Both the position numbers and the translations under genes were made by a program. Of a DNA stretch of 16,687 nt, positions 1,878-16,687 are shown in pieces (the stretch's first letter is position 1; every line of letters begins with the position of its first letter). Source of the DNA: an uncultured bacterium (GTDB lineage: Bacteria > Patescibacteriota > Minisyncoccia > Moranbacterales > GWC2-37-73); contig CAIJXA010000074.1 of NCBI GenBank assembly GCA_903824515.1, forward strand, positions 1 to 16,687, written 5' to 3'. The notes below the pieces were generated by a model. That model saw only the letters and a list, made by a program, of their open reading frames with translations. It did no database searches and was not told the origin of the DNA.

Positions 1878-2023
1878 GTGTGGTTTTTTAATTTTCAATT
1901 TTAAATTTAAAATTTTTAAACAATTCTCAAATATCAAATTTTAAAATTTTTAATTTCAGCTAAGGGCTGATCCGCCGAGGGCGGACATTTCAAATTTCAA
2001 ATTAAAAATTTCAAATTAATTTT
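1878..2023 (+). promoter_or_regulatory. AT-rich repeated-motif leader upstream of dnaE; shares AATTTTCAATTTTAAAT and AAATTTCAAATTTCAAATT motifs with the thrS upstream region
   Basis: Motifs at 1881-1900 and 1993-2016 recur in the same order at 10990-11012 and 11072-11092. A small GC hairpin TCCGCC-GAG-GGCGGA (about 1961-1975) is embedded. No SD precedes the dnaE ATG. Confidence 0.4.
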
Positions 2024-5000
2024 ATGAAATATACTCATCTCCACGTTCACTCCCACTATTCCCTGCTTGACGGCTTGGGGAAGATTGACGATTTAATGGA
2101 TCGCGCCAAAGAGCTAGGCATGGATTCGATTGCGCTGACTGATCACGGGGTGATGTATGGGGCGGTGGAACTTTTTATTAAAGCGAAGGAAAAAGGGATT
2201 AAGCCAATTATTGGCTGCGAGATGTATATTACGCCGAACGATTTGCATAGTAAAAATCCGATTGCCGAAGACCGCAAACGTCATCATTTAATTTTACTGG
2301 TTAAAAACGAGGAAGGTTATCATAATTTAATGAAGCTCGTTTCTATCGCGCATTTAGAAGGCTTTTACTATAAACCGCGCATCGACCGCAAAGTTTTGCG
2401 TCAATATGCCAAAGGTCTCATTGGACTTTCCGCTTGCGTGGAAGGAGAAATTCCTTCGCAAATTGTGATGGGAAATTATGACAAAGCCAAGCAGCTGGCT
2501 TTGGAATATCAGGATATTTTTGACAAAGATGGTTTTTTCTTGGAAGTTCAAAGTCACACCAAATTTTCCAATCAAGCCATTGCTAACGAAGGAATTTTCA
2601 AACTGGGAAAAGAATTGAACATTCCGGTCGTGGCAACTTGCGACGTGCACTATGTCAACAAAGAAGACGCCAGCGCTCAGGACATTTTGCTTTGCGTGCA
2701 AACTAATCGCAAAGTGGATGAAGTTGATCGCATGAATTTGATGGACTTTGATTTATCCTTGCGCAGCCCCGAGGAAGTCCTGGCGGGTTTTCCAGAAAAC
2801 CCAGAGGTGCTTTCAAACACGCAACTCGTGGTTGATCAATGTGATTTCAAATTGAAACTCGGCGAAACCCAACTCCCTCATTTTGATGTGCCTGAAGGTC
2901 ACACTGCAACATCATATTTGGTTGAACTTTGCGAAAAAGGTTTGAAGAAAAAATACAAAGTTGAAGAAATCACCGATGTGCATCGCGAGCGCATGGCCTA
3001 TGAACTTTCCGTGATTGAAAAATGCGGTTACGCTTCTTACTTTTTAATTGTGCAGGATTTCGTTAATTGGGCTAAGGACAACGGCATCATTGTTGGACCT
3101 GGACGCGGAAGTGCGGCCGGCAGTTTCATTTCCTATCTCACGGGAATCACCAACGTTGATCCAATTGAATATAATTTACTGTTCGAAAGATTCCTCAATC
3201 CAGAACGAGTCTCCATGCCTGATGTTGATATGGACTTTGCGGATAATCGTCGCGACGACGTGCTGAATTATGTTCGCCAAAAATATGGCAATGACCACGT
3301 TTCCCAAATTATTACCTTTGGAACCATGGCTGCCCGGGCTGCCATTCGCGACACTGGACGCGCCTTGGGATTTCCTTACGATTTTTGCAATAAAACTTCG
3401 CAGATGATTCCGATGTTCACTTCCATCAAAAAAGCCATTGAAGAAGTCCCCGAATTTAAAGAGCTTTATCACAATAACAAGGATGGAAAAAAATTAATTG
3501 ATAGTGCTATGCGTTTAGAGGGCGTTATTCGTCATGCTGGGATGCATGCTTGCGGAGTCGTGATTACGAAAGAACCCGTGACCTATTATTCCCCGATTCA
3601 GAATATCACCGGCTCGCGCGAAGGCACGGTAACGCAATACTCTTCTTCGACTAAATCTTCTTACGTGGAAAAAATTGGCCTGCTTAAGATGGACTTTTTA
3701 GGGCTCAAGAATCTCACCATTATTCAAGACACCCTGCGGATTGCTAAAAAAATTCATGGCGTTGACATTGATATTGATACCATTCCCATTGATGATCCGG
3801 AGGCTTTTAAGCTCCTCCAAGAAGCCCGCACGACCGGCGTTTTTCAATTAGAAAGTTCCGGCATGAAGCGTTATTTAAAATTATTGAAGCCAACCGTGAT
3901 TGAAGATATTATCGCAATGGTAGCGCTTTATCGCCCAGGACCAATGGATTGGATTCCAGATTTCATCTCTGGCAAGCACGGACGCAAAATCAAATATGTG
4001 CATCCAAAACTAGAACCAATTCTAGCCAATACTTACGGCGTCGCCGTTTATCAAGAACAAGTTATGCAAATTGCGCGCGACCTAGCCGGCTTTACCATGG
4101 GCGAAGCTGACGTCTTGCGTAAGGCAATGGGTAAGAAAATTTTTGAACTGATCAAAGAACAAAAAATTAAATTTGTCGAAGGATGCATCACTAACGGCAG
4201 CACAAAAGAAATTGCCGAAAAAGTTTTTTCTTTCATCGAACCTTTTGCGGGCTATGGTTTCAACCGCTCCCATGCTGCTTGCTATGCAATTATTGGTTAT
4301 CAAACTGCCTATCTCAAAGCCCACTATCCAGCTGCCTTCATGGCTGCGTTGCTGACCTCTGACCAGGACAACATTGACCGCATTGCCATTGAAGCAAGCG
4401 AGTGTCGAGAAATGGGCATCCAAGTTTTGGCACCAGATGTCAACGAAAGTTTTGAAGATTTTGCTGTGATTACTGAAGAAGATGGTTCTCAAAGAATTAG
4501 ATTCGGATTCAATGCCATCAAAAACGTGGGGCATGTCATTGCGCACGAAATTGTGGAAGAAAGAAAACGTGGTGGCAAATTCAAATCCTTGGCTGATTTT
4601 CTCACTAGAGTTGAAACGAAGGATCTCAACAAAAAATCCATTGACGCACTCGCCAAAGTTGGTGCACTCGACGAGCTCGGAGAACGAAATCAAATCATTG
4701 AAAGTATGGAACAAATTTTGATGTTCACCAAAAGCATGCAAAAACAAAAAAATTCCAACCAAGTCAGTCTATTTGGACAAGCAATTTTGGAAACTCCAAC
4801 CGTACCCTTGATTGAAACCCAGCCGGCCAGCAAACGCCAACAATTGCGTTGGGAAAAAGAATTGCTTGGTCTTTATGTTAGCGGACATCCAGCTCAGGAA
4901 TATCAGGGCTACATTGAAAAAGTGGCCGTGCCTTTGGACAAACTTTCCAAAGAAATGGTTGGTCAAAAAATTGCAGTCGGCGGTGTCATCCAAAAAGTGC

Positions 5001-6857: not shown

Positions 6858-6901
6858 AAAAAAACCACAAATCATACGACCGCTAGTAATTTGGTATTTT
6901 C
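6858..6901 (-). repeat. Copy 1 of a 44-bp direct repeat (AAAAAACCACAAATCATACGACCGCT(A/G)GTA-TTTGGT-TTTT), immediately 3' of the PaaX-like gene; terminator-like on the minus strand
   Basis: A 26-nt core is identical to 7485-7510. On the minus strand it folds as ACCAAAT...ATTTGTGGT (bulged stem) followed by TTTTTTT. Confidence 0.6.
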
Positions 6902-7465
6902 TTATTTTAACTTCAATTTAAAGTGCAGACACAATCCTGCTTCGTTTGTGAGATTCATTGCATCTCCGCACCTGACAAATCTGCGAATTTCATAAAACTC
7001 AACAATAAAGTTTATTTCATCTAGGCATGGATAAGGATGCACAAAAACAGATTTTTGAAGTTCAAAAAAATTTAACTCTTTCAGTTTTTCTCGTAGTACG
7101 TCCCGCCTATATTTCAGTTTTTCTGGGACATCAAACATAACGAGTCGCCACTTCCCGTCCCAATGAGATGGCTTCTTTATTTTTATTTGATGAATATGAA
7201 AATCCAAAATTTTCTTTTTGCCTTTCTCGGTGATCACAATCTTCACCGAGCCATCGGAGTTTTTGATGCCCCTAACTAATCTTTGTTGATAAAATTCCCG
7301 CACTGTGCGACGAAGATAATTTTCATCGATTGATTTCCAATCGCGCTTGGCAATTTTCAGCACCCGAAAATATTGCCTTGGCGATCCAGCTAGCCCAAGC
7401 GCAACGCCCGCTCCTAATAATAAAAGAATTTTTTGTTTTATCGGACTCTGAATTTTTCTACTCAT
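6902..7465 (-). CDS. Short PaaX-family transcriptional regulator (N-terminal wHTH plus PaaX middle/Cas2-like domain, no C-terminal domain)
   Basis: 187-aa ORF. The WDGKWRLVMFDVPEKLKYRRDVLREKLKELNFFELQKSVFVHP segment matches the PaaX WDGKW motif region (E. coli PaaX PAWDGKWLLLLSEGLD...GFGALAPS, quoted from memory). The N-terminus (ILLLLGAGVALGLAGSP...YLRRTVREF...DGSVKIVITEKGKK) looks like a winged helix. Confidence 0.65.
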   Translation of the reverse strand: MSRKIQSPIKQKILLLLGAGVALGLAGSPRQYFRVLKIAKRDWKSIDENYLRRTVREFYQQRLVRGIKNSDGSVKIVITEKGKKKILDFHIHQIKIKKPSHWDGKWRLVMFDVPEKLKYRRDVLREKLKELNFFELQKSVFVHPYPCLDEINFIVEFYEIRRFVRCGDAMNLTNEAGLCLHFKLKLK

Positions 7466-7484: not shown

Positions 7485-7527
7485 AAAAAACCACAAATCA
7501 TACGACCGCTGGTATTTTGGTTTTTTC
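7485..7527 (-). repeat. Copy 2 of the 44-bp direct repeat, about 65 nt 3' of the 7592-8791 gene and 20 nt 5' of the PaaX-like start; terminator-like on the minus strand
   Basis: See copy 1. On the minus strand: ACCAAAATACC...ATTTGTGGT followed by TTTTTTAT. Confidence 0.6.
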
Positions 7528-7591
7528 TGTTTTTTATTTTTCTTTTAGCTTAGGCGCTAGTTTCAATTTTCTTAATTATTTCCAAAAAATT

Positions 7592-8791
7592 TTAATTCGT
7601 CACATATGGAAAAGCGTCCGCAAGCTCGCCGGAATAATAAAATTCATAAGCTAACGAGCCAAAAGTATATTTTGCGGAATCAACTTCAATGTTGCTGCCA
7701 CCAACTTTTGGATTTGGATTAGGCCGCGATTGCGGGAAGCCAACATTAAAAAGCGTGCCAATTATTTCCGGGCGATAATCCATATTAAAACCAGCATTTT
7801 TCCATTGAGTCATCATTTCTTTCAAATAAAGCGCGCCATAAAGATAAGAATAGTAATGATTTTTTTCATCAGTCAGACGTTGATAGCGTTGGCTGGCTGG
7901 GTCTCCCTCGGCAAAATCCAAAGCACTCGAAAGCTGCGGCCCCAAGAAATAAGGAGACGAAGAATCTTTCAAATGCTGCTCGGTTTCAATGGCAGTGTTC
8001 TCTTTGACCCCCATCACCCCCAAAGAAATCTTGTTTGAATTGCCTAGAATTTTGAGCGGTTCAAAGAATTTCTTGAAAAGTTCTCGCTGAGAATTGAACA
8101 ATCTGACTTGCTCTACAATTGCGCAAGAGACAAGCAAGCGAGGTTCAATCCCAGCAATCGTCGAAGCTCTGTCAATCAAATCCTTGTCTTTTACAATCGC
8201 CTCTTTAATTGTCGCCCACTGTTCATTGCCCATCCAAGGAAAAATTGTTTCGCTCTGTGCTTCAAGATATTTCTTGGCAATCGCACTATCATTTATTTGG
8301 ATATTTTCCTTGTCACAGTTATCAAAAACACTACTGTTGTTGTTTTTTTCTTCAATCCGCAGCCTGGCCGCCAAAATCATTTTCGAGGCTAGCATATCGG
8401 AATCCAGCAATTGATAGTTTTGAATTATTTTCCAAGCTGCACCCGGCGCAAATGCTCCAATCACATCAATAGCGCAATAATTTTTTACTTTCAATTCTTT
8501 TTCCTGCGCAAGTTGCTTGATTTGAAAGTCCAAGGCATTAATTGAGGTTGCAACTTTTTCAGTTTTTTGACTCTCGGCTCCTAAAACTTGAGCTTGAGCA
8601 ACAATCTTGCTGCCAAGCAAAGTTTTTCCAAAACGATCTGAGTTTGCATCCACCATTCCAGCCACATCCGTCAAATGAAACCGTACCGCAAAAAAACCGC
8701 AGACCAACACAAAACCGATTGCAGCAAAAACATGCAGCCCAACTTTATAGCCCCAATAAAAAAATAGACGGAAGCGCTCGTTCATATACAA
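7592..8791 (-). CDS. Membrane-anchored hypothetical protein; weak resemblance to a lytic transglycosylase (SLT) catalytic motif
   Basis: 399-aa ORF with an N-terminal hydrophobic helix. AGIEPRLLVSCAIVEQVRLFNS aligns with the SLT pattern G.DP.LL.AI...ES.FNP.A, and ISLGVMGVKENTA lies about 20 aa later where GLMQ..P.TA is expected. The spacer is longer than usual. The reported start is TTG; an ATG two codons in is more likely the true start. Confidence 0.55.
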   Translation of the reverse strand: MYMNERFRLFFYWGYKVGLHVFAAIGFVLVCGFFAVRFHLTDVAGMVDANSDRFGKTLLGSKIVAQAQVLGAESQKTEKVATSINALDFQIKQLAQEKELKVKNYCAIDVIGAFAPGAAWKIIQNYQLLDSDMLASKMILAARLRIEEKNNNSSVFDNCDKENIQINDSAIAKKYLEAQSETIFPWMGNEQWATIKEAIVKDKDLIDRASTIAGIEPRLLVSCAIVEQVRLFNSQRELFKKFFEPLKILGNSNKISLGVMGVKENTAIETEQHLKDSSSPYFLGPQLSSALDFAEGDPASQRYQRLTDEKNHYYSYLYGALYLKEMMTQWKNAGFNMDYRPEIIGTLFNVGFPQSRPNPNPKVGGSNIEVDSAKYTFGSLAYEFYYSGELADAFPYVTN

Positions 8792-8792
8792 A

Positions 8793-8821
8793 TATTATAG
8801 CGCATTTTCCATAATGTTCGA
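8793..8821 (-). promoter_or_regulatory. Sigma70-like promoter (TTCGAA - 17 nt - TATAAT) directly upstream of the 7592-8791 gene; implies a leaderless or very short-leader mRNA
   Basis: On the minus strand: TTCGAA (8816-8821), 17-nt spacer, TATAAT (8793-8798). The start codon follows within about 7 nt. Confidence 0.5.
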
Positions 8822-8837
8822 AATTCATATAAAATAC

Positions 8838-8975
8838 CCCGGGGCAAGCCCCACACCCTACGGGCTCACGAGGCAAGACATGTCACTCGTGAGCGACGTG
8901 TCAAGCCTCGTAGGCAAGATACCTTTTGCTGCGTCGCTCGCTGTGAAATGAAAGAGTGCTTTCATTTCACTCACT
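8838..8975. other. GC-rich (about 58%) 140-nt island of nested and mutually exclusive hairpins; candidate structured ncRNA or cis-element of unknown class
   Basis: GGGGCAAGCCCC hairpin (8841-8852). 9-bp stem GCTCACGAG / CTCGTGAGC (8864-8872 / 8886-8894). Competing 8-bp stem GAGCGACG / CGTCGCTC (8891-8898 / 8932-8939), which shares GAGC with the previous stem. Outer CCTACG / CGTAGG pairing (8857-8862 / 8909-8914). Perfect 12-bp hairpin GTGAAATGAAAG-AGTG-CTTTCATTTCAC (8944-8971). GGCAAG occurs three times. No tRNA T-loop or SRP domain IV motif was found. Confidence 0.35.
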
Positions 8976-8987
8976 TTACTAGATAAC

Positions 8988-9021
8988 AAAAAAAGTCATC
9001 CCGGAAATAAACGGAATGACT
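8988..9021 (-). terminator. Intrinsic terminator of the 9042-9851 gene
   Basis: On the minus strand: stem AGUCAUUCCG / CGGGAUGACU (10 bp, one G-U pair), loop UUUAUUU, then UUUUUUUG (+ strand A7 at 8988-8994). Confidence 0.75.
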
Positions 9022-9041
9022 CAAAAGATCCAAAGACCACA

Positions 9042-9851
9042 TCAACTTGCACTGAAACAAAATTTTTCCTGTAAAATCGCTGATCGAAAGTAGAGACTTT
9101 GACCAAACAAGTCAGGCTTATATTTATCGACAGTGATACTTGTACCGTCGTAACCCATACCAATAACTTCACGACTTGCATTATTAACATATGTTTCGGT
9201 CAAGGTGACGCTATACCGATCCAGGGGCAATCCGGTAAACCAATAAATAAACAAATTAAGAATTCGCAATTCACAAAATCTCAACACCCTAATTCTTTGA
9301 TTTGCAATATCATTAGCAGACTTAGACCTCAATTCGCCATCGGCTTCAAAAGTCAATGGGGTCAGAACGATATACTTACTTACTCCAGATAAGTCGCGAT
9401 TGCTCCTTTCAATTTTTCCAAACGCAGCCAATTCCGCATTAAGATTATTATGAATTGTTCTTAAATTTAACAATTTTTCATCATCTTTATCCACATAAGT
9501 AATATCAGCAGAAATCAAATAACTAACTGGCATACATATTGGAAAAAGATTAGCATCGGCTGCTGGCATTGTTGGCAATAAACTCCTTGGAAAAGAAAGT
9601 TCCCTTTTAAAAACATCTTTATAAAAAACTGAATAAAGTCTTAGCACCTCATTCATATTTAGCGACAGTAAATCTATTTGATTAACTGACTTTTCACTAA
9701 AAATAGGCATGCTTTTTTTGAGGAGAACTTCTTCTTTTTTTATTAGAGTCCTTCTATGCATAGTACTACCTCCTATATAAGTTTTAAAGGTTCTGTTGAT
9801 AAAAATACGTTCATCAAGCTCCATTGCGAGTTGGATATAATTATTAACCAA
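9042..9851 (-). CDS. Hypothetical protein, paralog of the 9973-10635 product (family unknown)
   Basis: 269-aa ORF as tracked from a TTG start. The internal ATG at 9824 (MELDERIF...) fits the upstream promoter better, giving 260 aa. Clear paralogy with the next gene: LRLYSVFYKDVFKRELSFPRSLLP vs IAFYEMFFRDVFGIKISFSRELLP, and YIVLTPLTFEAD...ILNLFIYWFTG vs YILCAAAASANV...ILWLFHQWLSG. Confidence 0.6.
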   Translation of the reverse strand: MVNNYIQLAMELDERIFINRTFKTYIGGSTMHRRTLIKKEEVLLKKSMPIFSEKSVNQIDLLSLNMNEVLRLYSVFYKDVFKRELSFPRSLLPTMPAADANLFPICMPVSYLISADITYVDKDDEKLLNLRTIHNNLNAELAAFGKIERSNRDLSGVSKYIVLTPLTFEADGELRSKSANDIANQRIRVLRFCELRILNLFIYWFTGLPLDRYSVTLTETYVNNASREVIGMGYDGTSITVDKYKPDLFGQSLYFRSAILQEKFCFSAS

Positions 9852-10763: not shown

Positions 10764-10955
10764 AGCTTATATTAAAAGGACAATTTAATGAGATTGCCGG
10801 CCACCAACCGGCTCGATTTAGAGTCAAAATCTCCGCTTAAGCAGCTTGCGAAAAAGCGCACAAAGTGCCCAAATAATCCGGGAAATCGAGTGGAACCGCC
10901 CTTGGTGAAAATCAAGAGCCTCGATATGGAAAATTCTTTTTCCACCCTATTTTGT
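10764..10955 (+). promoter_or_regulatory. Probable T-box riboswitch leader (Thr-specific) for thrS, with a reduced Stem I
   Basis: AAATCGAGTGGAACCGCCC (10883-10901) matches the T-box core (AANNNGGGUGGNACCGCG), in which UGGN pairs with the tRNA NCCA end. A terminator alternative pairs AATCGAGTGGAA (10885-10896) with TTCCACCCTATT (10940-10951) and is followed by TTTTGTTT. Candidate Stem I: GAGATT / AAATCTC outer helix with GCCGG-CCACCAA-CCGGC (10796-10813) presenting ACC (Thr codon) followed by A. It lies immediately upstream of an aminoacyl-tRNA synthetase gene. Confidence 0.55.
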
Positions 10956-10959
10956 TTGA

Positions 10960-11122
10960 GCCTTTTATTTTTGCAAATTTTAAATTTGAAATTTTCAATT
11001 TTAAATGAAATCTAAATGATTCAATGTTTAAAAATTTATTATTGAAAAATTAAGAAATTGATTAAAAATTTTAAATTTCAAATTTCAAATTTTTTTAATT
11101 AAACATAAGCAACTAAACTATT
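10960..11122 (+). promoter_or_regulatory. AT-rich repeated-motif block between the T-box terminator and the thrS start; shares motifs with the dnaE upstream region
   Basis: GAAATTTTCAATTTTAAAT (10990-11012) and TTTCAAATTTCAAATTTTTTT (11072-11092) parallel 1881-1900 and 1993-2016. No SD precedes the ATG. Confidence 0.4.
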
Positions 11123-12883
11123 ATGACAAACGAAAAAAATAATCTCGAGCTGCTAAAACATTCCACTGCCCACATCCTGGCTGGAGCTGTTTTGGAAATG
11201 TTTCCCGAAGCAAAATTTGGCATCGGACCGGCGATTGAAAATGGCTTTTACTATGACTTCCAGCTTCCGCGAACCCTGATTCCGGAAGACCTGCCATTGC
11301 TCGAAGAAAAAATGAGAGAAATCATCAAAGCTAATCACCCTTTTGAAAAAGCGGAAATTTCAATCAAGGAGGCGCTTGAACATTTTGAAAAAGTAAACCA
11401 ACCATTGAAAGTGGAACTCATCAGTGACCTGCAAAAAGCTGGAAATGAAACAGTCACGATTTACAAATCAGGCAACTTGGTTGACTTGTGCGCTGGTCCG
11501 CACATCGAATCAACCGGGAAAATAAACTTCAAAGCTTTTGCCCTAACCAAAATTTCTGGCGCTTATTGGAAAGGCGACGAAAAAAATCAGCAACTGCAAA
11601 GAATTTATGGCGTGGTTTTTGAAGATAAAGAAGGTCTCAAAAACTATTTACATTTGGTCGAAGAAGCTGCCAAAAGAGATCATCGAAAACTTGGCAAAGA
11701 ATTGGATTTGTTTTGTTTTTCAGATTTGGTTGGCCCAGGACTTCCCCTTTTCACGCCAAATGGAACCATCATCAAAGATGAACTGCAAAAACACATTGAA
11801 AAAGTTTGTCGAGGTTATGGCTTTCAAAAAGTTTCGACTCCTCATCTTGCCAAAATAGACCTCTATGAAAAATCAGGCCATGCTCAAAAATTCGGCGCAG
11901 AACTTTTTCAAGTGACTTCTCACTACAAACAAAACTATGTCCTGAAACCTGTGCAATGCCCGCATCAAACTCAGATTTTTGCTTCCAAGCCACGCTCATA
12001 CCGAGACCTGCCAATTCGCTATATGGAATCAGAAAAGCAATATCGCGATGAAAAGCCTGGAGAAATCGGGGGCTTGCAACGCGTGATTGCAATCACCGTT
12101 GAAGACGGCCATTCTTTTTGCACCGTTGATCAAGTCAAACAAGAAGTGAAAAACATGGTAGAAATTATTCAAAATTTTTACACCTCGCTTGGACTCTGGG
12201 AAAATCATTGGATTTCACTTTCTGTCAGAGATTATGCACATCCGGAAAAATATATTGGAGATGCTGCCGATTGGGATGAATGCGAAAAAATACTCCAGGA
12301 TGTTTCCGCTGAAATGGGTCTTGGCGCAATCAAACATGAAGGTGAAGCAGCTCTTTATGGACCGAAACTGGATTTCATGTTCCGCGACGCCCTAGGCAAA
12401 GAAATTCAAATTCCAACCGTGCAATTGGATTTTGCAACTCCAAAAAGATTCGAATTAGAATACACCAACAACGAAGGCGGCAAATCATCGCCAGTCATGG
12501 TTCATCGGGCAATCCTTGGATCATATGAAAGATTCATTGCGCTTTTGATTGAGCATTTTGCTGGAGCTTTCCCACTTTGGCTTTCGCCGGTTCAGGTTGC
12601 CGTTTTGCCTATTTCAGAAAAATTTGCGCAGTATGCCGCTGAGGTGAAAAGCAAACTTTTAGTAGCCGACATCCGCGTGGAAATGAATGATAAAGCCGAG
12701 TCGCTTGGCAAAAGAATTTCCGAAACTGAAAAACAAAAAACTCCATATATCATCGTAGTCGGAGAAAAAGAGGTTGCCGACAAAACCGTCGCCGTTCGCA
12801 CTCATGGGGTCAAGGAGCAGCAAACTTTGCCACTGGATGAATTTATTGAGAAAATCATGAAAGAGATTATTAATAAGAAGTAA
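11123..12883 (+). CDS. thrS: Threonyl-tRNA synthetase lacking the N-terminal TGS domain
   Basis: 586-aa ORF. Begins at the editing (N2) domain with HSTAHILAG. Class II catalytic core and a C-terminal anticodon-binding domain (YIIVVGEKEVADKTVAVR). About 60 aa shorter at the N-terminus than E. coli ThrRS. Confidence 0.95.
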   Translation: MTNEKNNLELLKHSTAHILAGAVLEMFPEAKFGIGPAIENGFYYDFQLPRTLIPEDLPLLEEKMREIIKANHPFEKAEISIKEALEHFEKVNQPLKVELISDLQKAGNETVTIYKSGNLVDLCAGPHIESTGKINFKAFALTKISGAYWKGDEKNQQLQRIYGVVFEDKEGLKNYLHLVEEAAKRDHRKLGKELDLFCFSDLVGPGLPLFTPNGTIIKDELQKHIEKVCRGYGFQKVSTPHLAKIDLYEKSGHAQKFGAELFQVTSHYKQNYVLKPVQCPHQTQIFASKPRSYRDLPIRYMESEKQYRDEKPGEIGGLQRVIAITVEDGHSFCTVDQVKQEVKNMVEIIQNFYTSLGLWENHWISLSVRDYAHPEKYIGDAADWDECEKILQDVSAEMGLGAIKHEGEAALYGPKLDFMFRDALGKEIQIPTVQLDFATPKRFELEYTNNEGGKSSPVMVHRAILGSYERFIALLIEHFAGAFPLWLSPVQVAVLPISEKFAQYAAEVKSKLLVADIRVEMNDKAESLGKRISETEKQKTPYIIVVGEKEVADKTVAVRTHGVKEQQTLPLDEFIEKIMKEIINKK

Positions 12884-12936: not shown

Positions 12937-14382
12937 ATGAAATACTACATCAAAACCTTCGGTTGCCAAATGAACGTTTCAGACAGCCAGCGCTTAGCCA
13001 CCTTTTTGGAAGCGCAAGGTTTTTCGCAGAGCACTGAAATGGGTAGTGCGGAACTGGTCATCTTCAACACTTGCGGAGTCAAGCAAACCGCTGAGAATAG
13101 AGCTTACAGCCTGATTAATAACTTACGCAAAGCTGAAAAAGCATCCCGCTTAAAAGCTAAAAACTTTAAACTAACAGCTATCATCATGACGGGTTGCCTT
13201 GCCAATCGCACCGACGTACAAAAAAGAATGGAGACAAAAGTTGATTTATTTTGCGAAATCAAAAACTTTCCGCAAGATTTTCAAAAACTAAATTTTTGTC
13301 ATCTTGAGCGAAATTCTTCTGATGAAAATCAGAAAAATGAAGTCGAAGGATCTGAGTCTAATACTAATTACGACAACATAAGATTTCTCGACTTCGCTCG
13401 AAATGACAACAGTCGCGACTATCTCAGCATAGTTCCCAAACATCAAAATAGTTTTGAGGCCTACGTCCCAATCATGACGGGCTGCAACAATTTCTGCACT
13501 TATTGTGTGGTGCCAAATGCCCGTGGCCGTGAAGTTTCTCGTCCAGCTGAGGAAATCATCACTGAAGTCAAAAAACTCGTTTCCAAGGGTTATAAAAATA
13601 TTATTTTACTCGGGCAGAATGTAAATTCATATCGTGGAACGTGGAGCGTGGAGCGTGGAGCGTTAAATGCAAAAGCTAAAGAAAAAATTGTGACCTTTTC
13701 AACCCTTCTCAAGAAAATAAACGCTATTTCGGGCAAATTTTGGATTCAATTTGTTTCATCTCACCCAAAGGATATGAGCGACGAACTGATTGAAGTAATG
13801 ACAAAGTGCCAAAAAGTTTGTGAAAATATTCATTTACCCGTGCAAGCTGGCGACGATGAGATTCTGCAAAAAATGAACCGGCACTACACCCAGAAACACT
13901 ATCTTAATCTCATCAAGCAAATTAACCAAGCTTTCGAGAAAAATAAACCTGGAAAAATATTTTCAATTTCATCAGACATCATCGTCGGTTTCCCAGGCGA
14001 AACTCGCAAAAAATTTTTACAGTCAGCTGAGGTGATGGAAAAAGCAAAATTCGACATGGTTTTCTTCGGACAATTTTCACCCCGGCCTGAAACCGCCGCT
14101 TGGAAAATGAAAGACAATGTTTCTCAAAAAGAAAAAACCCGTCGCGAACAATATCTAAATGAAATTCTCAAAAGAACTGCATTTGAAAATAATCAAAAAT
14201 ATCTCAATCAAACAGTTGAAGTGCTGATCGAACAACAAAAAGAAGCTTCTTATTTCGGCAAAACCAGGACACTGAAAAACGTTAAGATCGCAACGAGCGA
14301 GAAAGATTTGCTCGGAAAAATCGTGAAAGTTAAGATTACTAAGGCCAACGTTTGGAATTTAGAAGGAGAAGCTTTAAAGTAG
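12937..14382 (+). CDS. miaB: tRNA-2-methylthio-N6-dimethylallyladenosine synthase (MiaB-type radical-SAM methylthiotransferase)
   Basis: 481-aa ORF. N-terminal MTTase domain (IKTFGCQMNVSDS...NTCGVKQTAEN), radical SAM CNNFCTYCVVP, C-terminal TRAM domain. Adjacent to miaA. The linker between MTTase and radical SAM domains is unusually long and low-complexity. Confidence 0.85.
   Translation: MKYYIKTFGCQMNVSDSQRLATFLEAQGFSQSTEMGSAELVIFNTCGVKQTAENRAYSLINNLRKAEKASRLKAKNFKLTAIIMTGCLANRTDVQKRMETKVDLFCEIKNFPQDFQKLNFCHLERNSSDENQKNEVEGSESNTNYDNIRFLDFARNDNSRDYLSIVPKHQNSFEAYVPIMTGCNNFCTYCVVPNARGREVSRPAEEIITEVKKLVSKGYKNIILLGQNVNSYRGTWSVERGALNAKAKEKIVTFSTLLKKINAISGKFWIQFVSSHPKDMSDELIEVMTKCQKVCENIHLPVQAGDDEILQKMNRHYTQKHYLNLIKQINQAFEKNKPGKIFSISSDIIVGFPGETRKKFLQSAEVMEKAKFDMVFFGQFSPRPETAAWKMKDNVSQKEKTRREQYLNEILKRTAFENNQKYLNQTVEVLIEQQKEASYFGKTRTLKNVKIATSEKDLLGKIVKVKITKANVWNLEGEALK
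13633..13663 (+). repeat. In-frame heptamer tandem array (CGTGGAA CGTGGAG CGTGGAG CGTGGAG CGT) inside miaB
   Basis: Read directly from the sequence. Encodes GTWSVERGA at a position where E. coli MiaB has a shorter loop (NVNAWRGENYDG...). Confidence 0.8.
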
Positions 14383-14694: not shown

Positions 14695-15693
14695 ATGGAA
14701 AAAAACAAACCAAAAATAATAGTCATCATGGGTCCCACTGCCTCAGGCAAATCAGGCGTGGCAATTAAACTTGCGCAGAAATTCGACGGCGAAATCATCT
14801 CCGCTGACAGTCGACAAATATACAAAGGACTCGACATTGGCTCAGGCAAAGTTTGTGGAGCGTGGAGCGTGGAGCGTGGAGCCTTTATTTCAGAAGGCAT
14901 CCCCCATCATTTGATTGATGTGGCTAAGCCTCAAGAAGATTTTAATGTAAGCCACTTCAAGAAACTGGCGCAAGAAAAAATTGGGGAAATTCTCAGTCGC
15001 AAAAAAGTTCCCATCATCTGCGGAGGAACGGCTTTTTGGATTGACACCTTGACTAAAAATTCCAACATTCCAGAAGTTGCCCCCAATGAAAAATTGCGAG
15101 CCAGACTTGCCAAGAAAAGTGTTGAGCAACTTTTTACCCAGCTTAAAAAACTCGATCCAGTCAGAGCAAGCGACATCGATGGTCAAAATAAGGTACGCCT
15201 CATTCGCGCAATTGAAATTTGCAAGGTGTTGGGCCATGTTCCAAAACGTGAAACGTGGAACGTGGAACGTGGAACGGAAAATACAAAATACGAGATACAA
15301 AATACAAAATACAACTTTCTAGAAATTGGAATTGAGGTGCCCAGGGAAATCCTGAACGCCAAAATCAAAAAACGTTTGGATGAACGTTTTGCCGAAGGCA
15401 TGACCCAAGAAGTTGAAAACCTGAATGAAAAGGGCGTTTCATGGCAGTGGTTGGAGCGCATCGGCTTGGAATATCGCTGGATTTCCAGATTTTTGCAAGG
15501 CAAAATAGAACTAGGAGAAATGTCCACCCAAGGCGTATGCACTTCGGGCGCAAAACAAAAATTATATTTTGACAGCATTCACTATGCCAAACGTCAAATG
15601 ACTTGGCTACAAAGAAACAAAAGTATTATTTGGCACAGCGATTATGAAGAAATTGAAAAAGAAGTTGAAAATTTCTTAGAACAAAATACTTAA
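14695..15693 (+). CDS. miaA: tRNA dimethylallyltransferase (MiaA)
   Basis: 332-aa ORF with P-loop GPTASGKSGVA and the signature DSRQIYKGLDIGSGK. Two insertions relative to canonical MiaA coincide with heptamer arrays. Confidence 0.9.
   Translation: MEKNKPKIIVIMGPTASGKSGVAIKLAQKFDGEIISADSRQIYKGLDIGSGKVCGAWSVERGAFISEGIPHHLIDVAKPQEDFNVSHFKKLAQEKIGEILSRKKVPIICGGTAFWIDTLTKNSNIPEVAPNEKLRARLAKKSVEQLFTQLKKLDPVRASDIDGQNKVRLIRAIEICKVLGHVPKRETWNVERGTENTKYEIQNTKYNFLEIGIEVPREILNAKIKKRLDERFAEGMTQEVENLNEKGVSWQWLERIGLEYRWISRFLQGKIELGEMSTQGVCTSGAKQKLYFDSIHYAKRQMTWLQRNKSIIWHSDYEEIEKEVENFLEQNT
14854..14881 (+). repeat. In-frame heptamer tandem array (TGTGGAG CGTGGAG CGTGGAG CGTGGAG) inside miaA (site 1)
   Basis: Encodes CGAWSVERGA between DIGSGKV and ISEGIPHHLID. 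It has the same unit as the miaB array. Confidence 0.8.
15247..15312 (+). repeat. Composite in-frame array inside miaA (site 2): 4 x CGTGRAA (15247-15274) immediately followed by 5 x AAAATAC/GAGATAC (15278-15312)
   Basis: Nine heptamers total 63 nt (21 codons) and encode ETWNVERGTENTKYEIQNTKYN, an insertion relative to E. coli MiaA. Confidence 0.8.
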
Positions 15694-15913
15694 AACCAAA
15701 ATTGAAAATTAAAAACCACCTATAGGAGAGTTAATAGTCAATTAATGTTGGTAAAAACATCGTTTCTGCACTAAGCTAAGCGGATAATCAATATGAAAGT
15801 TAAACTGGTTCATTCCGAATTTTCCGAACAACAAAAATCCGCTTCGACGTGTTCGTATGCCGCTCGGCTCAGGACACGGACCTGAGGTAATGAAGGGGTC
15901 GGACGCATGCGGA

Positions 15914-16687
15914 TCAGTTCTTCACGCATCGTACGGGAAGTCCGAATGCCCGGTTATTATAATTCGCAGGATTTACACCGGAAGAACTATAACTAAGCAG
16001 GTAGGCGGAGGAACCGGTAACGGTACTCGACCAACAATATCCTGCGGTTCCCTGATAATAAAGAGAAGCATCGTAATAATTCCGACCACCCGACAACGAA
16101 AGTTTAAGGGTCGAACTGAGCGCAGTGGCTGGATTCGTGATACCGGCCGCGGAGACAAGGGTGGACCATTCCGCCTGAGTCGGCACACGGAATCCAGACG
16201 GGCACGGATTGTTCGTTCCGGAAACTCCCTGCCATAGACTGTTGTTCTGCCCGCTTCTCCAGTCATTTGGTGAACTCGGGGCCATGATAAATTTCACATG
16301 TCCCGGAGTGTCCGAGGAACTCAGGGTCGAAGTCGTGCTACTGGTCATGGTCTGATGCCCATCGGTGTTCCTACCCCACTGGTAAAGCCACCCATACGAG
16401 AGCGAATCCGTAGTCGATATGGCCACCTGCGGAGCGCCGAGATTTCGATCCAACCAGATCTTACCGTCAGCCCCGGTGACCGCCCCGTAGGTAAGTCCGC
16501 CGAAAACGCATGTCTGCCCGGCAATCAGAGTCGCATCACACGTTGAAGTCACAATCGCAGGGCCAACACCCGAAGAAAAGGTTATAGAACCCGAACCGAC
16601 GTTGATCCATTTGTATATTTTATAGCCACCAGTATTAGTGAAGGTCGGTGAACCAGTTGTTGAAGCTGCATCAGCATAGGTATCTGG
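15914..16687 (-). CDS. Protein with C-terminal Fibrobacter succinogenes major paralogous (TIGR02145-like) domain; 5'-partial, continuing beyond the window end
   Basis: C-terminus ...KIWLDRNLGA...GWLYQWGRNTDG...CPSGFRVPTQAEWSTL...GYCWSST...AFGLPVRCVKN matches the FISUMP domain pattern. The frame stays open upstream of the tracked GTG at 16552 to the window edge (...PDTYADAASTTGSPTFTNTGGYKIYKWINVGSGS...). The region is about 55-60% GC versus about 38% elsewhere. Confidence 0.75.
   Translation of the reverse strand, partial: PDTYADAASTTGSPTFTNTGGYKIYKWINVGSGSITFSSGVGPAIVTSTCDATLIAGQTCVFGGLTYGAVTGADGKIWLDRNLGAPQVAISTTDSLSYGWLYQWGRNTDGHQTMTSSTTSTLSSSDTPGHVKFIMAPSSPNDWRSGQNNSLWQGVSGTNNPCPSGFRVPTQAEWSTLVSAAGITNPATALSSTLKLSLSGGRNYYDASLYYQGTAGYCWSSTVTGSSAYLLSYSSSGVNPANYNNRAFGLPVRCVKN

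What the first reader, a model, noticed from the sequence alone, without database searches (positions are those of the whole stretch)
8838..8975. GC-rich 140-nt island with competing hairpins between a terminator and a promoter: candidate novel structured RNA or cis-element
This segment is about 58% GC in a 38% GC genome. It holds at least five stems, two of which (8864-8894 and 8891-8939) are mutually exclusive, plus a perfect 12-bp hairpin. It sits between the terminator of the 9042 gene and the promoter of the 7592 gene and lies outside any ORF. On the + strand a TTCCAT-17-TAAAAT promoter-like sequence (8808-8836) would start transcription right at its 5' edge. It does not look like tRNA, SRP, 6S or RNase P RNA.
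Basis: seen in the sequence. Interest (0 to 1): 0.55.

Follow-up and report, generated by a model that had tools for sequence, protein, structure and literature searches.

The report
Candidate small RNA in Moranbacteria
The GC-rich island is a real, hairpin-rich, non-coding element of about 150 bases. It is kept under selection in three related lineages of an uncultured Moranbacteria (CPR) bacterium and is most likely a small RNA read from the strand opposite to the one first proposed; one hairpin is nearly identical to a "REP" repeat that is common in unrelated bacteria.

Summary
Window 8838-8975 is 55.8% GC against 40.6% for the window, folds far better than shuffles (z about -5), lies between a terminator and a promoter, has no ORF, and matches no Rfam family or tRNA.

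The window is a Candidatus Moranbacteria (CPR) contig. The same element sits upstream of the same 397-aa gene in two other lineages (93% and 79% protein identity). It is missing at that site in every other relative examined. Where present it is 78-83% identical, while four-fold degenerate sites of the adjacent gene are about 45-47% identical, so it is under selection.

Fold energies, wobble pairs, CUUG loops and a terminator-like hairpin with a U-run in all three lineages favour the minus strand, not the plus strand. The "competing hairpins" come from a 28-nt insert found only in this window. The plus-strand promoter is not above chance and is not conserved.

Bases 8841-8862 match, at 21 of 22 positions (24/24 in the 93% relative), the core of a GTAG-type REP/REPIN repeat that is multi-copy in Hymenobacter and also present in other phyla.

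Best reading: a lineage-restricted small RNA that carries a REP-like hairpin. Expression, promoter and target are untested.

The parts
8834..8986 (-). The whole conserved element (candidate small RNA), read 8986 -> 8834. It starts at the conserved TTATCTAG and ends at the terminator-like hairpin and U-run.
   Evidence: An nhmmer profile of the three versions matches window 8983-8834 on the minus strand (E 6e-38), L003 3815-3935 and L080 2833-2954. Alignment A2. Core identity is 83% and 78% to L080, against 47% and 45% at four-fold sites.
8979..8986 (-). TTATCTAG, invariant at the 5' edge in all three lineages. Its role is unknown and it is not a recognisable -10 box.
   Evidence: Invariant columns in A2. 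No sigma-70-like site was found here in the window, L003 or L080.
8943..8970 (-). P1: AT-rich hairpin. The stem is 12 bp in the window. A 10-bp core, GAAATGAAAG/CTTTCATTTC, is invariant in all three lineages, and the 4-nt loop varies (CACT, CTTT, TACT).
   Evidence: Ten pairs never vary. L003 has one U.G, which is a valid pair only on the minus orientation.
8932..8940 (-). Invariant tract CGAGCGACG (minus-strand reading) between P1 and the 3' domain. It is unpaired in the P1-P4 model and is a candidate seed or protein-binding site.
   Evidence: Invariant in A2. Plus-strand CGTCGCTCG at 8932-8940.
8922..8928 (-). Invariant tract CAAAAGG (minus-strand reading). In the window and L003 it lies in the small hairpin 8914-8929. 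That hairpin is not kept in L080. In the L080 fold the tract pairs with CCUUUU of the terminator.
8857..8914 (-). P2: CCUAC (8914-8910) pairs with GUAGG (8861-8857). P2 encloses P3 and the 8-nt linker GUGAGCCC (8869-8862). In L080 it is kept as 4 pairs plus a bulged A, and GTAG has become GAAG.
   Evidence: helix 2: 100% of cells paired.
8870..8909 (-). P3: GAGG (8909-8906) pairs with CCUC (8873-8870) under a CUUG loop. L003 has AAGG/CCUU, a compensatory G-C to A-U change.
   Evidence: helix 3. Sequences.
8878..8905 (-). A 28-nt insert in the P3 loop, found only in this lineage and flanked by a duplicated CTTG. It carries CGTCGCTC and GCTCACGAG, which are inverted copies of the neighbouring conserved tracts, and it creates the 'mutually exclusive' stems. 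The contig in another sample (L002) breaks at the edge of this long hairpin (window about 8869).
   Evidence: Gap in L003 and L080 in A1 and A2. L002 starts at window about 8869. The complementarity is read.
8840..8853 (-). P4: (U)GGGG-CUUG-CCCC(G). L080 has CAGGG-CUUG-CUCUG, which adds one compensatory pair and one G.U.
   Evidence: helix 4.
8841..8862 (-). REP-like module CGTAGGGTGTGGGGCTTGCCCC. It matches 21 of 22 bases (24 of 24 in L003) of the core of a GTAG-type REP/REPIN repeat.
   Evidence: A genome-contig scan gave 66 loci and 68 matches, mostly multi-copy in Hymenobacter, and 45 of 68 have an inverted partner within 130 nt. BLAST similarity is limited to 8840-8866.
8830..8853 (-). 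Terminator-like 3' end on the minus strand: the P4 hairpin followed by GGGUAUUUUA. L003 and L080 have a separate hairpin here, GGGG(G)UAUUAAUA(U)CCC plus UUUUAUU; 16 nt of it are missing in the window.
   Evidence: Terminator scans (8853-8840; L003 3931-3948; L080 2948-2963).
8794..8822 (-). Promoter of the downstream 397-aa gene: -35 TTCGAA at 8822-8817, a 17-nt spacer, and -10 TATAAT at 8799-8794. The ATG is at 8785, so the mRNA is leaderless or nearly so. This is not part of the element and marks its downstream limit.
   Evidence: Sequence. A TATAAT box 6-9 nt before the ATG is kept in most orthologues examined, whether or not they carry the element; L078 has no clear match.
8993..9022 (-). 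Intrinsic terminator of the upstream gene (11-bp stem plus a T-run). This is not part of the element and marks its upstream limit in this lineage.
   Evidence: It is conserved, with compensatory changes, in L003.
8806..8835 (+). Judged to be chance.
   Evidence: One site found against 2.1 expected. Not detected in L003 or next to the element in L080.

Best explanation
The island is a lineage-restricted, selectively constrained non-coding element of about 150 nt. It is most likely a small RNA transcribed from the minus strand, in the same direction as the flanking genes.

Read 8986 -> 8834, it has these parts:
- an invariant TTATCTAG edge;
- an invariant AT-rich hairpin (P1);
- two invariant unpaired tracts, CGAGCGACG and CAAAAGG;
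- a GC-rich 3' domain that can form short CUUG-capped hairpins (P2/P3/P4);
- a terminator-like hairpin with a U-run that ends just before the promoter of the leaderless 397-aa gene.

The P2-P4 junction (8841-8862) has the sequence of a GTAG-type REP repeat. The domain was therefore probably built from, or shares ancestry with, such a palindromic element and was then retained.

Shown: conservation above neutral sites, structure beyond chance, absence of coding potential, preference for the minus strand, terminator-like 3' ends, and the REP identity.

Inferred: that it is transcribed, that the invariant unpaired tracts bind a target RNA or a protein, and that the REP-like part is an adopted repeat.
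For: 1. Orthologous copies sit upstream of the same gene in L003/L004/L005/L076 (93% protein identity) and in L080 (79%), although the upstream genes differ in L080.
2. Core identity is 100/120 (83%) for window-L080 and 94/120 (78%) for L003-L080. Four-fold sites of the adjacent gene give 54/116 and 53/119 (Fisher p 2.5e-9 and 8e-8). The 66 codons next to the element are not elevated (0.50 and 0.36), so a recent recombination tract is unlikely.
3. The four proposed helices are paired in 96% of cells, against 44-58% when partners are slid. Two pairs have compensatory G-C to A-U changes.
4. Strand:
- Single-sequence energies (minus / plus) are -64.2 / -58.8 for the window, -54.5 / -38.0 for L003 and -53.3 / -43.4 for L080.
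- Consensus fold energy is -38.3 (minus) against -30.9 (plus).
- Three wobble cells are valid only on the minus strand, against one valid only on the plus strand.
- The P3 and P4 loops are CUUG on the minus strand in all three lineages. CUUG closed by G-C is a known stable RNA tetraloop (my own knowledge).
5. Terminator-like sites lie at the 3' end on the minus orientation in all three lineages.
6. It is non-coding: indels of 28, 16 and 1 nt and only short ORFs.
7. No Rfam, tRNA or tmRNA match.
Against: - No sigma-70-like promoter was found upstream on the minus strand in any lineage. In the window and L003 the element directly follows a strong terminator.
- There are no expression data.
- Only three distinct sequences exist, so covariation is weak: 2 compensatory pairs, and 52 of 500 shuffles reach that count.
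- RNAalifold prefers a different, G.U-rich long hairpin for the 3' domain with no covariation, so the secondary structure is unsettled.
- Paired and unpaired columns are equally conserved (84% and 83%), and the P1 arms are invariant while the loop varies. That pattern also fits a protein-binding DNA palindrome.
- The z-score in the window itself is slightly better on the plus strand (-5.1 against -4.5).
- The element is dispensable. It is absent at the same site in L006 (87% relative) and in all more distant relatives examined.
Confidence: 0.5

Rival explanations
1. It is a cluster of REP-like palindromic DNA: a decayed or orphan GTAG-type REP, possibly a remnant of a miniature mobile element. 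It acts, if at all, at the DNA level, or only as a passive hairpin in read-through RNA. It is not a dedicated RNA gene.
For: - Bases 8841-8862 match the REP/REPIN core CGTAGGGTGCGGGGCTTGCCCC at 21 of 22 positions, and L003 matches 24 of 24.
- That core is multi-copy in Hymenobacter, mostly as inverted pairs (45 of 68).
- GTAG tags and GCTTGC loops are REP hallmarks (PMC3733652; PMC3116915; PMC2817692).
- REPs typically lie downstream of ORFs between genes transcribed in the same direction (PMC3733652 abstract), as here.
- Presence or absence varies among close relatives.
- A second GTAG on the other strand (8910-8913) faces the first, like a 'TT dimer' with a structured spacer.
- A contig in another sample breaks inside the element.
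Against: - No second copy was found anywhere. There is none in the 16.7-kb window or in about 700 kb of held loci, which include roughly 150 kb of Moranbacteria DNA.
- A JGI metagenome scan with the element-specific part found only the same syntenic locus.
- Similarity to REPs covers only 23-24 nt, and the 3' arm of the REP stem is missing, leaving a 4-5 bp stem.
- In L080 the tag is GAAG and the second 'REP' is absent.
- Conservation far above neutral sites over the whole 120 nt, including non-REP parts, is not expected for decaying junk.
- None of the 10 ORFs scanned has a Y1 transposase domain.
- The literature search listed no paper that links RAYT with Patescibacteria.
Confidence: 0.2
2. 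It is a DNA-level regulatory region for the downstream leaderless 397-aa gene. P1 would be an operator: a 10-bp inverted repeat with a variable 4-bp spacer, bound by a dimeric transcription factor. The invariant tracts would be further binding sites.
For: - The P1 arms are invariant in three lineages while the spacer varies. The stem core shows no covariation, as expected for a sequence-specific protein site.
- The element always sits directly upstream of the same gene's promoter, even where the upstream genes differ.
- Paired and unpaired columns are equally conserved.
Against: - P1 lies about 150-190 bp upstream of the -10 box, which is far for a bacterial operator.
- Orthologues without the element keep the same promoter.
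- The compensatory changes in P3 and P4, the strand asymmetry of the fold energies and the terminator-like 3' ends are not explained.
- No regulator gene co-varies with the element. The PaaX-like gene is present in the window and L003 but not in L080.
Confidence: 0.12
3. This is the first reader's model: a plus-strand structured RNA that starts at the TTTCCA-18-TAAAAT site and switches between competing hairpins, in the manner of a riboswitch.
For: - The promoter-like site exists.
- The plus strand of the window folds with z -5.1.
- Two hairpins in the window have G.U pairs on the plus strand that would be A.C on the minus strand (read).
Against: - The promoter count is below the chance expectation, and no such site is detected in L003 or next to the element in L080.
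- No plus-strand terminator was found.
- The competing stems need the 28-nt insert that only this window has.
- The plus strand folds much worse in L003 (z -1.9) and worse in L080, and the consensus fold is also worse.
- The two plus-favouring G.U pairs lie in hairpins that are not conserved in L080.
Confidence: 0.06
4. It is only a back-up terminator or insulator: a stack of hairpins that stops read-through from upstream and shields the leaderless promoter, with no function of its own as an RNA.
For: - It lies between a terminator and a promoter.
- Terminator-like ends are found in all three lineages.
- REPs are credited with roles in termination and mRNA stabilisation (PMC3733652 abstract).
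Against: - In L080 no gene is transcribed toward the element from upstream; thrS is divergent.
- Invariant unpaired tracts and an invariant AT-rich hairpin are not needed for termination.
- Relatives do without it.
Confidence: 0.1

Closest known systems
GTAG-type REP / REPIN repeats: the Hymenobacter family GTAGGGTGCGGGGCTTGCCCCCGCCCGTCGTTGAACG, and related Pseudomonas REPs with GGGGGCTTGCCCCC cores (PMC3116915, PMC2817692, PMC3733652)
   Same: - A 21/22 (window) or 24/24 (L003) identity to the repeat core.
- A GTAG tag 5' of a GC-rich stem with a CTTG loop.
- An intergenic position downstream of an ORF between genes transcribed in the same direction.
- Presence or absence varies among relatives.
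   Different: - It is single-copy as far as could be tested.
- The 3' arm of the REP stem and the inverted partner are missing.
- In L080 the tag is GAAG.
- The REP-like part is only about 15% of a larger conserved element, and the rest of that element matches no REP.
- No RAYT transposase was seen.
- The host is a CPR bacterium of about 40% GC, whereas the REP-bearing loci are 55-68% GC.
Bacterial small RNAs with an intrinsic terminator (generic class: 5' hairpin, unpaired seed, 3' hairpin plus U-run)
   Same: - Size of about 150 nt and an intergenic position.
- Conserved unpaired tracts flanked by hairpins.
- A terminator-like 3' end.
- Narrow phylogenetic range.
- Conservation above neutral sites.
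   Different: No recognisable promoter, no expression data, no predicted target, no known chaperone context in CPR bacteria, and no Rfam family.
Riboswitch / attenuator leaders (competing terminator and antiterminator hairpins)
   Same: In the window there are mutually exclusive stems next to a terminator-like hairpin.
   Different: - The competing stems are not conserved, because they depend on the window-only insert.
- The downstream gene's promoter lies after the element and the mRNA looks leaderless, so the element is not a 5' leader.
Non-autonomous IS200/IS605-type elements (PATEs) and other hairpin-ended MITEs
   Same: Length of about 150 nt with a hairpin near each end. Relatives have a clean empty site, and the same TTATC precedes the element in the window, L003 and L080.
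   Different: The left flank in L080 still resembles the window's T-run tail, which suggests orthology rather than a target site. No other copies and no transposase were seen. This comparison rests on my own knowledge of those elements and was not tested further.

Membership tests
GTAG-type REP / REPIN | Terminal GTAG (or a close variant) tag next to the stem-loop | tested here: met
   GTAG at 8861-8858 (minus strand), directly 5' of the P4 hairpin in the window and L003. It is degenerate (GAAG) in L080. Definition from PMC3733652.
GTAG-type REP / REPIN | Imperfect palindrome with a stem of about 6-13 bp (5 bp in one listed family) | tested here: not met
   Only GGGG/CCCC plus one wobble pairs, giving 4-5 bp. 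The left arm GTG(T/C) has no partner. In Stenotrophomonas the same core forms GTGCGGGG/CCCCGCAC.
GTAG-type REP / REPIN | Many dispersed copies in the same genome | tested here: inconclusive
   No other copy in the window, in about 150 kb of Moranbacteria loci, or among Moranbacteria species representatives in the genome scan. The element-specific pattern hit only the syntenic locus in JGI metagenomes. The complete genome of this organism could not be scanned.
GTAG-type REP / REPIN | An inverted partner REP 20-100 bp away (a dimer or REPIN) | tested here: not met
   No inverted copy of the 22-mer. The opposite-strand GTAG at 8910-8913 is followed by an unrelated AT-rich hairpin, and both are absent in L080.
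GTAG-type REP / REPIN | An associated RAYT (Y1 tyrosine transposase) gene in the genome | tested here: inconclusive
   No Y1_Tnp hit among the 10 ORFs of the window that were scanned. The rest of the genome is not available.
Any Rfam family (4227 models) | Score at or above the family's gathering threshold | tested here: not met
   No hits in the window at gathering score. The best local hits score 13-21 bits against thresholds of 40-218. Nothing covers the L080 copy apart from the edge of a chance-level T-box hit.
tRNA / tmRNA | Cloverleaf or tmRNA detected by ARAGORN | tested here: not met
   No genes in the window.
Terminator-ended bacterial small RNA (generic class) | Intrinsic terminator at the 3' end on the proposed strand | tested here: met
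   Terminator-like sites at window 8853-8840, L003 3931-3948 and L080 2948-2963, all on the same orientation.
Terminator-ended bacterial small RNA (generic class) | Own promoter upstream | tested here: not met
   No sigma-70-like site upstream on that strand in the window, L003 or L080. The scan covers only the TTGACA/TATAAT type.
Terminator-ended bacterial small RNA (generic class) | Sequence and structure conserved beyond neutral expectation | tested here: met
   78-83% identity against 45-47% at four-fold sites. 96% of cells paired and 2 compensatory pairs. Only three sequences are available.
Terminator-ended bacterial small RNA (generic class) | A discrete transcript | not testable with these tools
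Riboswitch / attenuator | Conserved alternative pairings, located in the 5' leader of the regulated gene | tested here: not met
   The alternative stems need the window-only 28-nt insert. The promoter of the downstream gene lies between the element and the ATG.

The most novel reading that the evidence does not exclude
A CPR (Patescibacteria) bacterium has taken a GTAG-type REP hairpin, a sequence otherwise found as a multi-copy selfish repeat in Bacteroidota, Chloroflexota and Proteobacteria, and built it into a new, selectively maintained small RNA. That would be the first REP-derived functional RNA and the first REP-like sequence reported in CPR. The near-identical 22-24-nt core would be a trace of DNA transfer between phyla, possibly from a host organism.
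Probability: 0.15. Interest if true: 0.6.

Novelty: new member of a known kind. Interest (0 to 1): 0.4.

Why it matters
Very little is known about regulatory RNAs in CPR/Patescibacteria, which have tiny genomes and cannot be grown alone. This is a concrete, selectively constrained candidate with defined parts: an invariant hairpin, two invariant unpaired tracts and a terminator-like end. It can be checked directly in existing metatranscriptomes.

The exact match of one hairpin to a REP/REPIN core shared by several phyla raises two further questions. One is how such repeat cores spread or recur. The other is whether streamlined symbionts recycle foreign palindromes into functional RNA. The range is narrow (three lineages) and the function is unknown, so the finding is of moderate interest, not major.

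Tried and rejected
1. Known RNA families. Rfam at gathering score on the whole window, and at E up to 10 on 8700-9100 and on the L080 copy, gave only chance-level hits. ARAGORN found nothing.

2. Multi-copy repeat.
- No copy elsewhere in the window.
- An nhmmer profile against all 87 held sequences (704 kb) found only the orthologous copies and the 23-nt REP core.
- The metagenome scan with AGCAAAAGGTATYTTGCCTAC found only the syntenic locus.
- Three viral-contig scans found nothing.
- blastn against plasmids and phages found nothing relevant.

3. 'Recent lineage-specific insertion.' This was my reading after L006 and L007 lacked the element. I dropped it when L080 (79% relative) turned out to carry a diverged copy.

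4. REP 'TT dimer' reading (two facing GTAGs). Rejected because the second GTAG and its hairpin are absent in L080.

5. Riboswitch-like switch. Rejected because the competing stems are specific to the insert.

6. Coding. Rejected because of indels that are not multiples of three and because only short ORFs are present.

7. Recent recombination as the cause of the high identity. Rejected because synonymous sites in the adjacent 66 codons are not elevated.

8. Self-target search. The complement of the invariant tract, CGTCGCTCG, occurs in the window only inside the element itself, apart from one-mismatch chance-level sites.

9. More homologues could not be fetched. P0004 had no DNA on file, although its 128-nt spacer is too short to hold the element. 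P0009 and P0011 have 9-nt and 77-nt spacers.

Full report
**Observation**

The segment 8838-8975 is 55.8% GC and its core 8838-8941 is 62.5%, in a window of 40.6%. It is the only intergenic 100-nt stretch at or above 58% GC in the window.

Both strands fold much better than dinucleotide shuffles. The plus strand gives -58.8 kcal/mol (z -5.1) and the minus strand -64.2 (z -4.5). The perfect 12-bp hairpin (8943-8970), the long hairpin (8868-8911) and both "mutually exclusive" pairings (8864-8872/8886-8894 and 8891-8898/8932-8939) are in the sequence.

The island lies between the intrinsic terminator of the upstream gene (9022-8993) and the promoter of the next gene, TTCGAA-17-TATAAT. That gene's real start is the ATG at 8785. 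There is no Rfam hit at gathering score, only chance-level hits at E up to 10, and no tRNA or tmRNA. The plus-strand promoter-like site exists but is not above chance: one site found against 2.1 expected.

**Source and relatives**

The 397-aa protein next to the element has hundreds of homologues, and where a source names them they are Candidatus Moranbacteria. The window is the same contig as an ENA metagenome contig (L001).

I fetched the orthologous locus from relatives.
- The 93% relative, seen in four independent assemblies (L003, L004, L005, L076), carries the element.
- The 87% relative (L006) and the 78% relative (L007-L009) have spacers of only 125 and 109 nt and lack it.
- The 79% relative (L080) carries a clearly homologous but diverged copy upstream of the same gene. 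Its two upstream genes are gone, and the neighbour is a divergent thrS.
- More distant relatives (L077-L079, L081-L086) lack the element. For P0004 no DNA was held, but its 128-nt spacer is too short.

The element therefore belongs to one small clade and has been lost at least once. P0003 is the outgroup to the window, P0001 and P0002.

**Selection**

Over the core, from TTATCTAG to P4 and leaving out the window-only insert, identity is as follows:

| Pair | Element core | Four-fold degenerate sites of the adjacent gene | Fisher p |
|---|---|---|---|
| window - L080 | 100/120 (83%) | 54/116 (47%) | 2.5e-9 |
| L003 - L080 | 94/120 (78%) | 53/119 (45%) | 8e-8 |

The 66 codons that abut the element are not elevated (0.50 and 0.36). 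A recent recombination tract therefore does not explain the identity. The element is under purifying selection wherever it is kept.

It is not coding. The versions differ by indels of 28, 16 and 1 nt, and only short ORFs overlap it.

**Anatomy (read on the minus strand, 8986 to 8834)**

- TTATCTAG is invariant.
- P1 is an AT-rich hairpin. Its 10-bp core is invariant and its loop varies.
- The invariant tracts CGAGCGACG and CAAAAGG follow.
- The GC-rich 3' domain comes next.
- A terminator-like hairpin with a U-run closes the element.

For the 3' domain I propose three helices: P2 (CCUAC/GUAGG), enclosing P3 (GAGG-CUUG-CCUC) and an 8-nt linker, followed by P4 (GGGG-CUUG-CCCC).

On alignment A2 these helices are paired in 96% of cells, against 44-58% when partners are slid. 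There are two compensatory G-C to A-U changes, in P3 of L003 and in P4 of L080. With three sequences this is suggestive only: 52 of 500 shuffles reach two compensatory pairs.

RNAalifold prefers one long G.U-rich hairpin for this domain. It has lower energy but no covariation. P1 is secure, and the 3' domain fold is not settled.

**Strand**

Every strand-sensitive measure favours the minus strand.
- Single-sequence energies (minus / plus) are -64.2 / -58.8 for the window, -54.5 / -38.0 for L003 and -53.3 / -43.4 for L080.
- With the insert removed, the minus strand is better by 7-16 kcal/mol in all three. The consensus fold is -38.3 against -30.9.
- Three wobble cells in the conserved helices are valid only on the minus strand, against one valid only on the plus strand.
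- Both conserved tetraloops read CUUG on the minus strand. CUUG closed by G-C is a known stable loop; this rests on my own knowledge.
- Terminator-like sites close the element on that orientation in the window, L003 and L080.

The weak point is the promoter. No sigma-70-like site precedes the element in any lineage. The RNA could arise by read-through and processing, or from a promoter type that the scan does not cover.

**The competing hairpins**

Both alternative stems need the 28-nt insert at 8878-8905. The insert sits in the P3 loop, is flanked by a duplicated CTTG, and exists only in this window's lineage.

The insert carries CGTCGCTC and GCTCACGAG. These are inverted copies of the two neighbouring conserved tracts. 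This is what template switching within a palindromic region would produce; that origin is my inference.

A contig from another sample breaks at the edge of this long hairpin, which fits an insert that varies within the population or a hairpin that assemblers handle badly. The switch idea is therefore not supported.

**The REP match**

A scan of one genome per species for CGTAGGGTGYGGGGCTTGCCCC (window 8841-8862) returned 66 loci.
- Nearly all are Hymenobacter, with several copies per genome.
- Some hits are in MAGs labelled Janthinobacterium and Rhodanobacter, and their flanks look like the Hymenobacter family.
- There is a distinct family in an Anaerolineaceae MAG.
- Single copies occur in Stenotrophomonas and in an unnamed MAG.
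- None is in a CPR genome.

All hits have the C variant, as L003 does. L003 matches 24 consecutive bases. In Hymenobacter the motif is the head of a classic REPIN, GTAGGGTGCGGGGCTTGCCCCCGCCCGTCGTTGAACG, followed by a spacer and an inverted copy. Of the 68 matches, 45 have the partner within 130 nt.

GTAG tags and GGGGCTTGCCCC-type cores are REP hallmarks (PMC3733652, PMC3116915, PMC2817692).

Similarity to the window stops after 23-24 nt. The REP's 3' stem arm and its inverted partner are missing. L080 has GAAG and 16 of 22 matches. Against the defining REP features, the element meets the tag, fails on stem length and on a partner, and is inconclusive on copy number and on a RAYT gene.

I therefore do not file the element as a REP. 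An exact 24-mer match to a high-copy repeat consensus is too unlikely to dismiss as chance. Shared ancestry, meaning an adopted or captured REP hairpin, is the most economical reading, and it remains unexplained.

**Verdict**

- Best explanation (confidence about 0.5): a lineage-restricted small RNA on the minus strand that contains a REP-like hairpin module.
- Rival (0.2): REP-like palindromic DNA with no dedicated RNA role.
- Rival (0.12): a DNA-level regulatory region, with P1 as an operator.
- Rival (0.1): a mere back-up terminator.

The element is a new candidate family of a known kind. Interest is moderate.

Noticed in passing
window 13634-13675 (in the miaB ORF), and 14855-14896 and 15248-15289 (in the miaA ORF): Three in-frame copies of a repeat of about 42 nt, built on (GTGGAGC)x3-4 and 81-86% alike. 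They encode G(T/A)WSVERGA and ETWNVERGT inside two different tRNA-modification enzymes. They look like in-frame mini-insertions or an expanded heptamer repeat.
   Followed up: partly
window 10841-10971 (inside a called 75-aa ORF at 10788-11015, upstream of thrS at 11123-12883); L080 2595-2725: This stretch is 82.7% identical over 133 nt between the window and L080, and lies upstream of thrS in both. That is far above the ~47% seen at four-fold sites. The protein-level match covers only 24 aa. It may be a conserved thrS leader RNA rather than a protein. Rfam gives only a sub-threshold T-box hit in L080 (14.6 bits, E 0.58) and none in the window.
   Followed up: partly
window 1885-2040 and 10964-11114: AT-rich direct and inverted repeats of the AAATTT(T/C)AAATTT type, in two intergenic regions about 9 kb apart, upstream of dnaE and of thrS.
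   Followed up: no
window 15836-16577, minus-strand ORF ending at 15914: Coding sequence of 58-65% GC in a 40% GC window. The C-terminal part has motifs that, from memory, resemble the Fibrobacter-type paralogous domain (GKIWLDRNLGA, YGWLYQWGR, VRCVK). It may be a foreign or fast-evolving surface protein.
   Followed up: no
window 8783-8799, and the orthologous sites in L006, L007, L077, L079 and L080: The 397-aa gene has a TATAAT box 6-9 nt before its ATG and no Shine-Dalgarno sequence in most orthologues examined. This suggests a leaderless mRNA.
   Followed up: partly
L021, L037, L047, L049, L056 (Anaerolineaceae MAG); L065 (Stenotrophomonas); L074 (unnamed MAG): The same 22-26-nt REP core, CGTAGGGTGCGGGGCTTGCCCC(CGCCC), occurs in repeat families with quite different flanks in several phyla. 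Hits in MAGs labelled Janthinobacterium and Rhodanobacter have Hymenobacter-type flanks and may be mis-binned contigs.
   Followed up: partly
window 6859-6913 and 7485-7539: A 55-nt direct repeat (87% identical), AAAAAACCACAAATCATACGACCGCT..GGT.TTTTC, follows two consecutive minus-strand genes. These are probably duplicated terminator regions.
   Followed up: no
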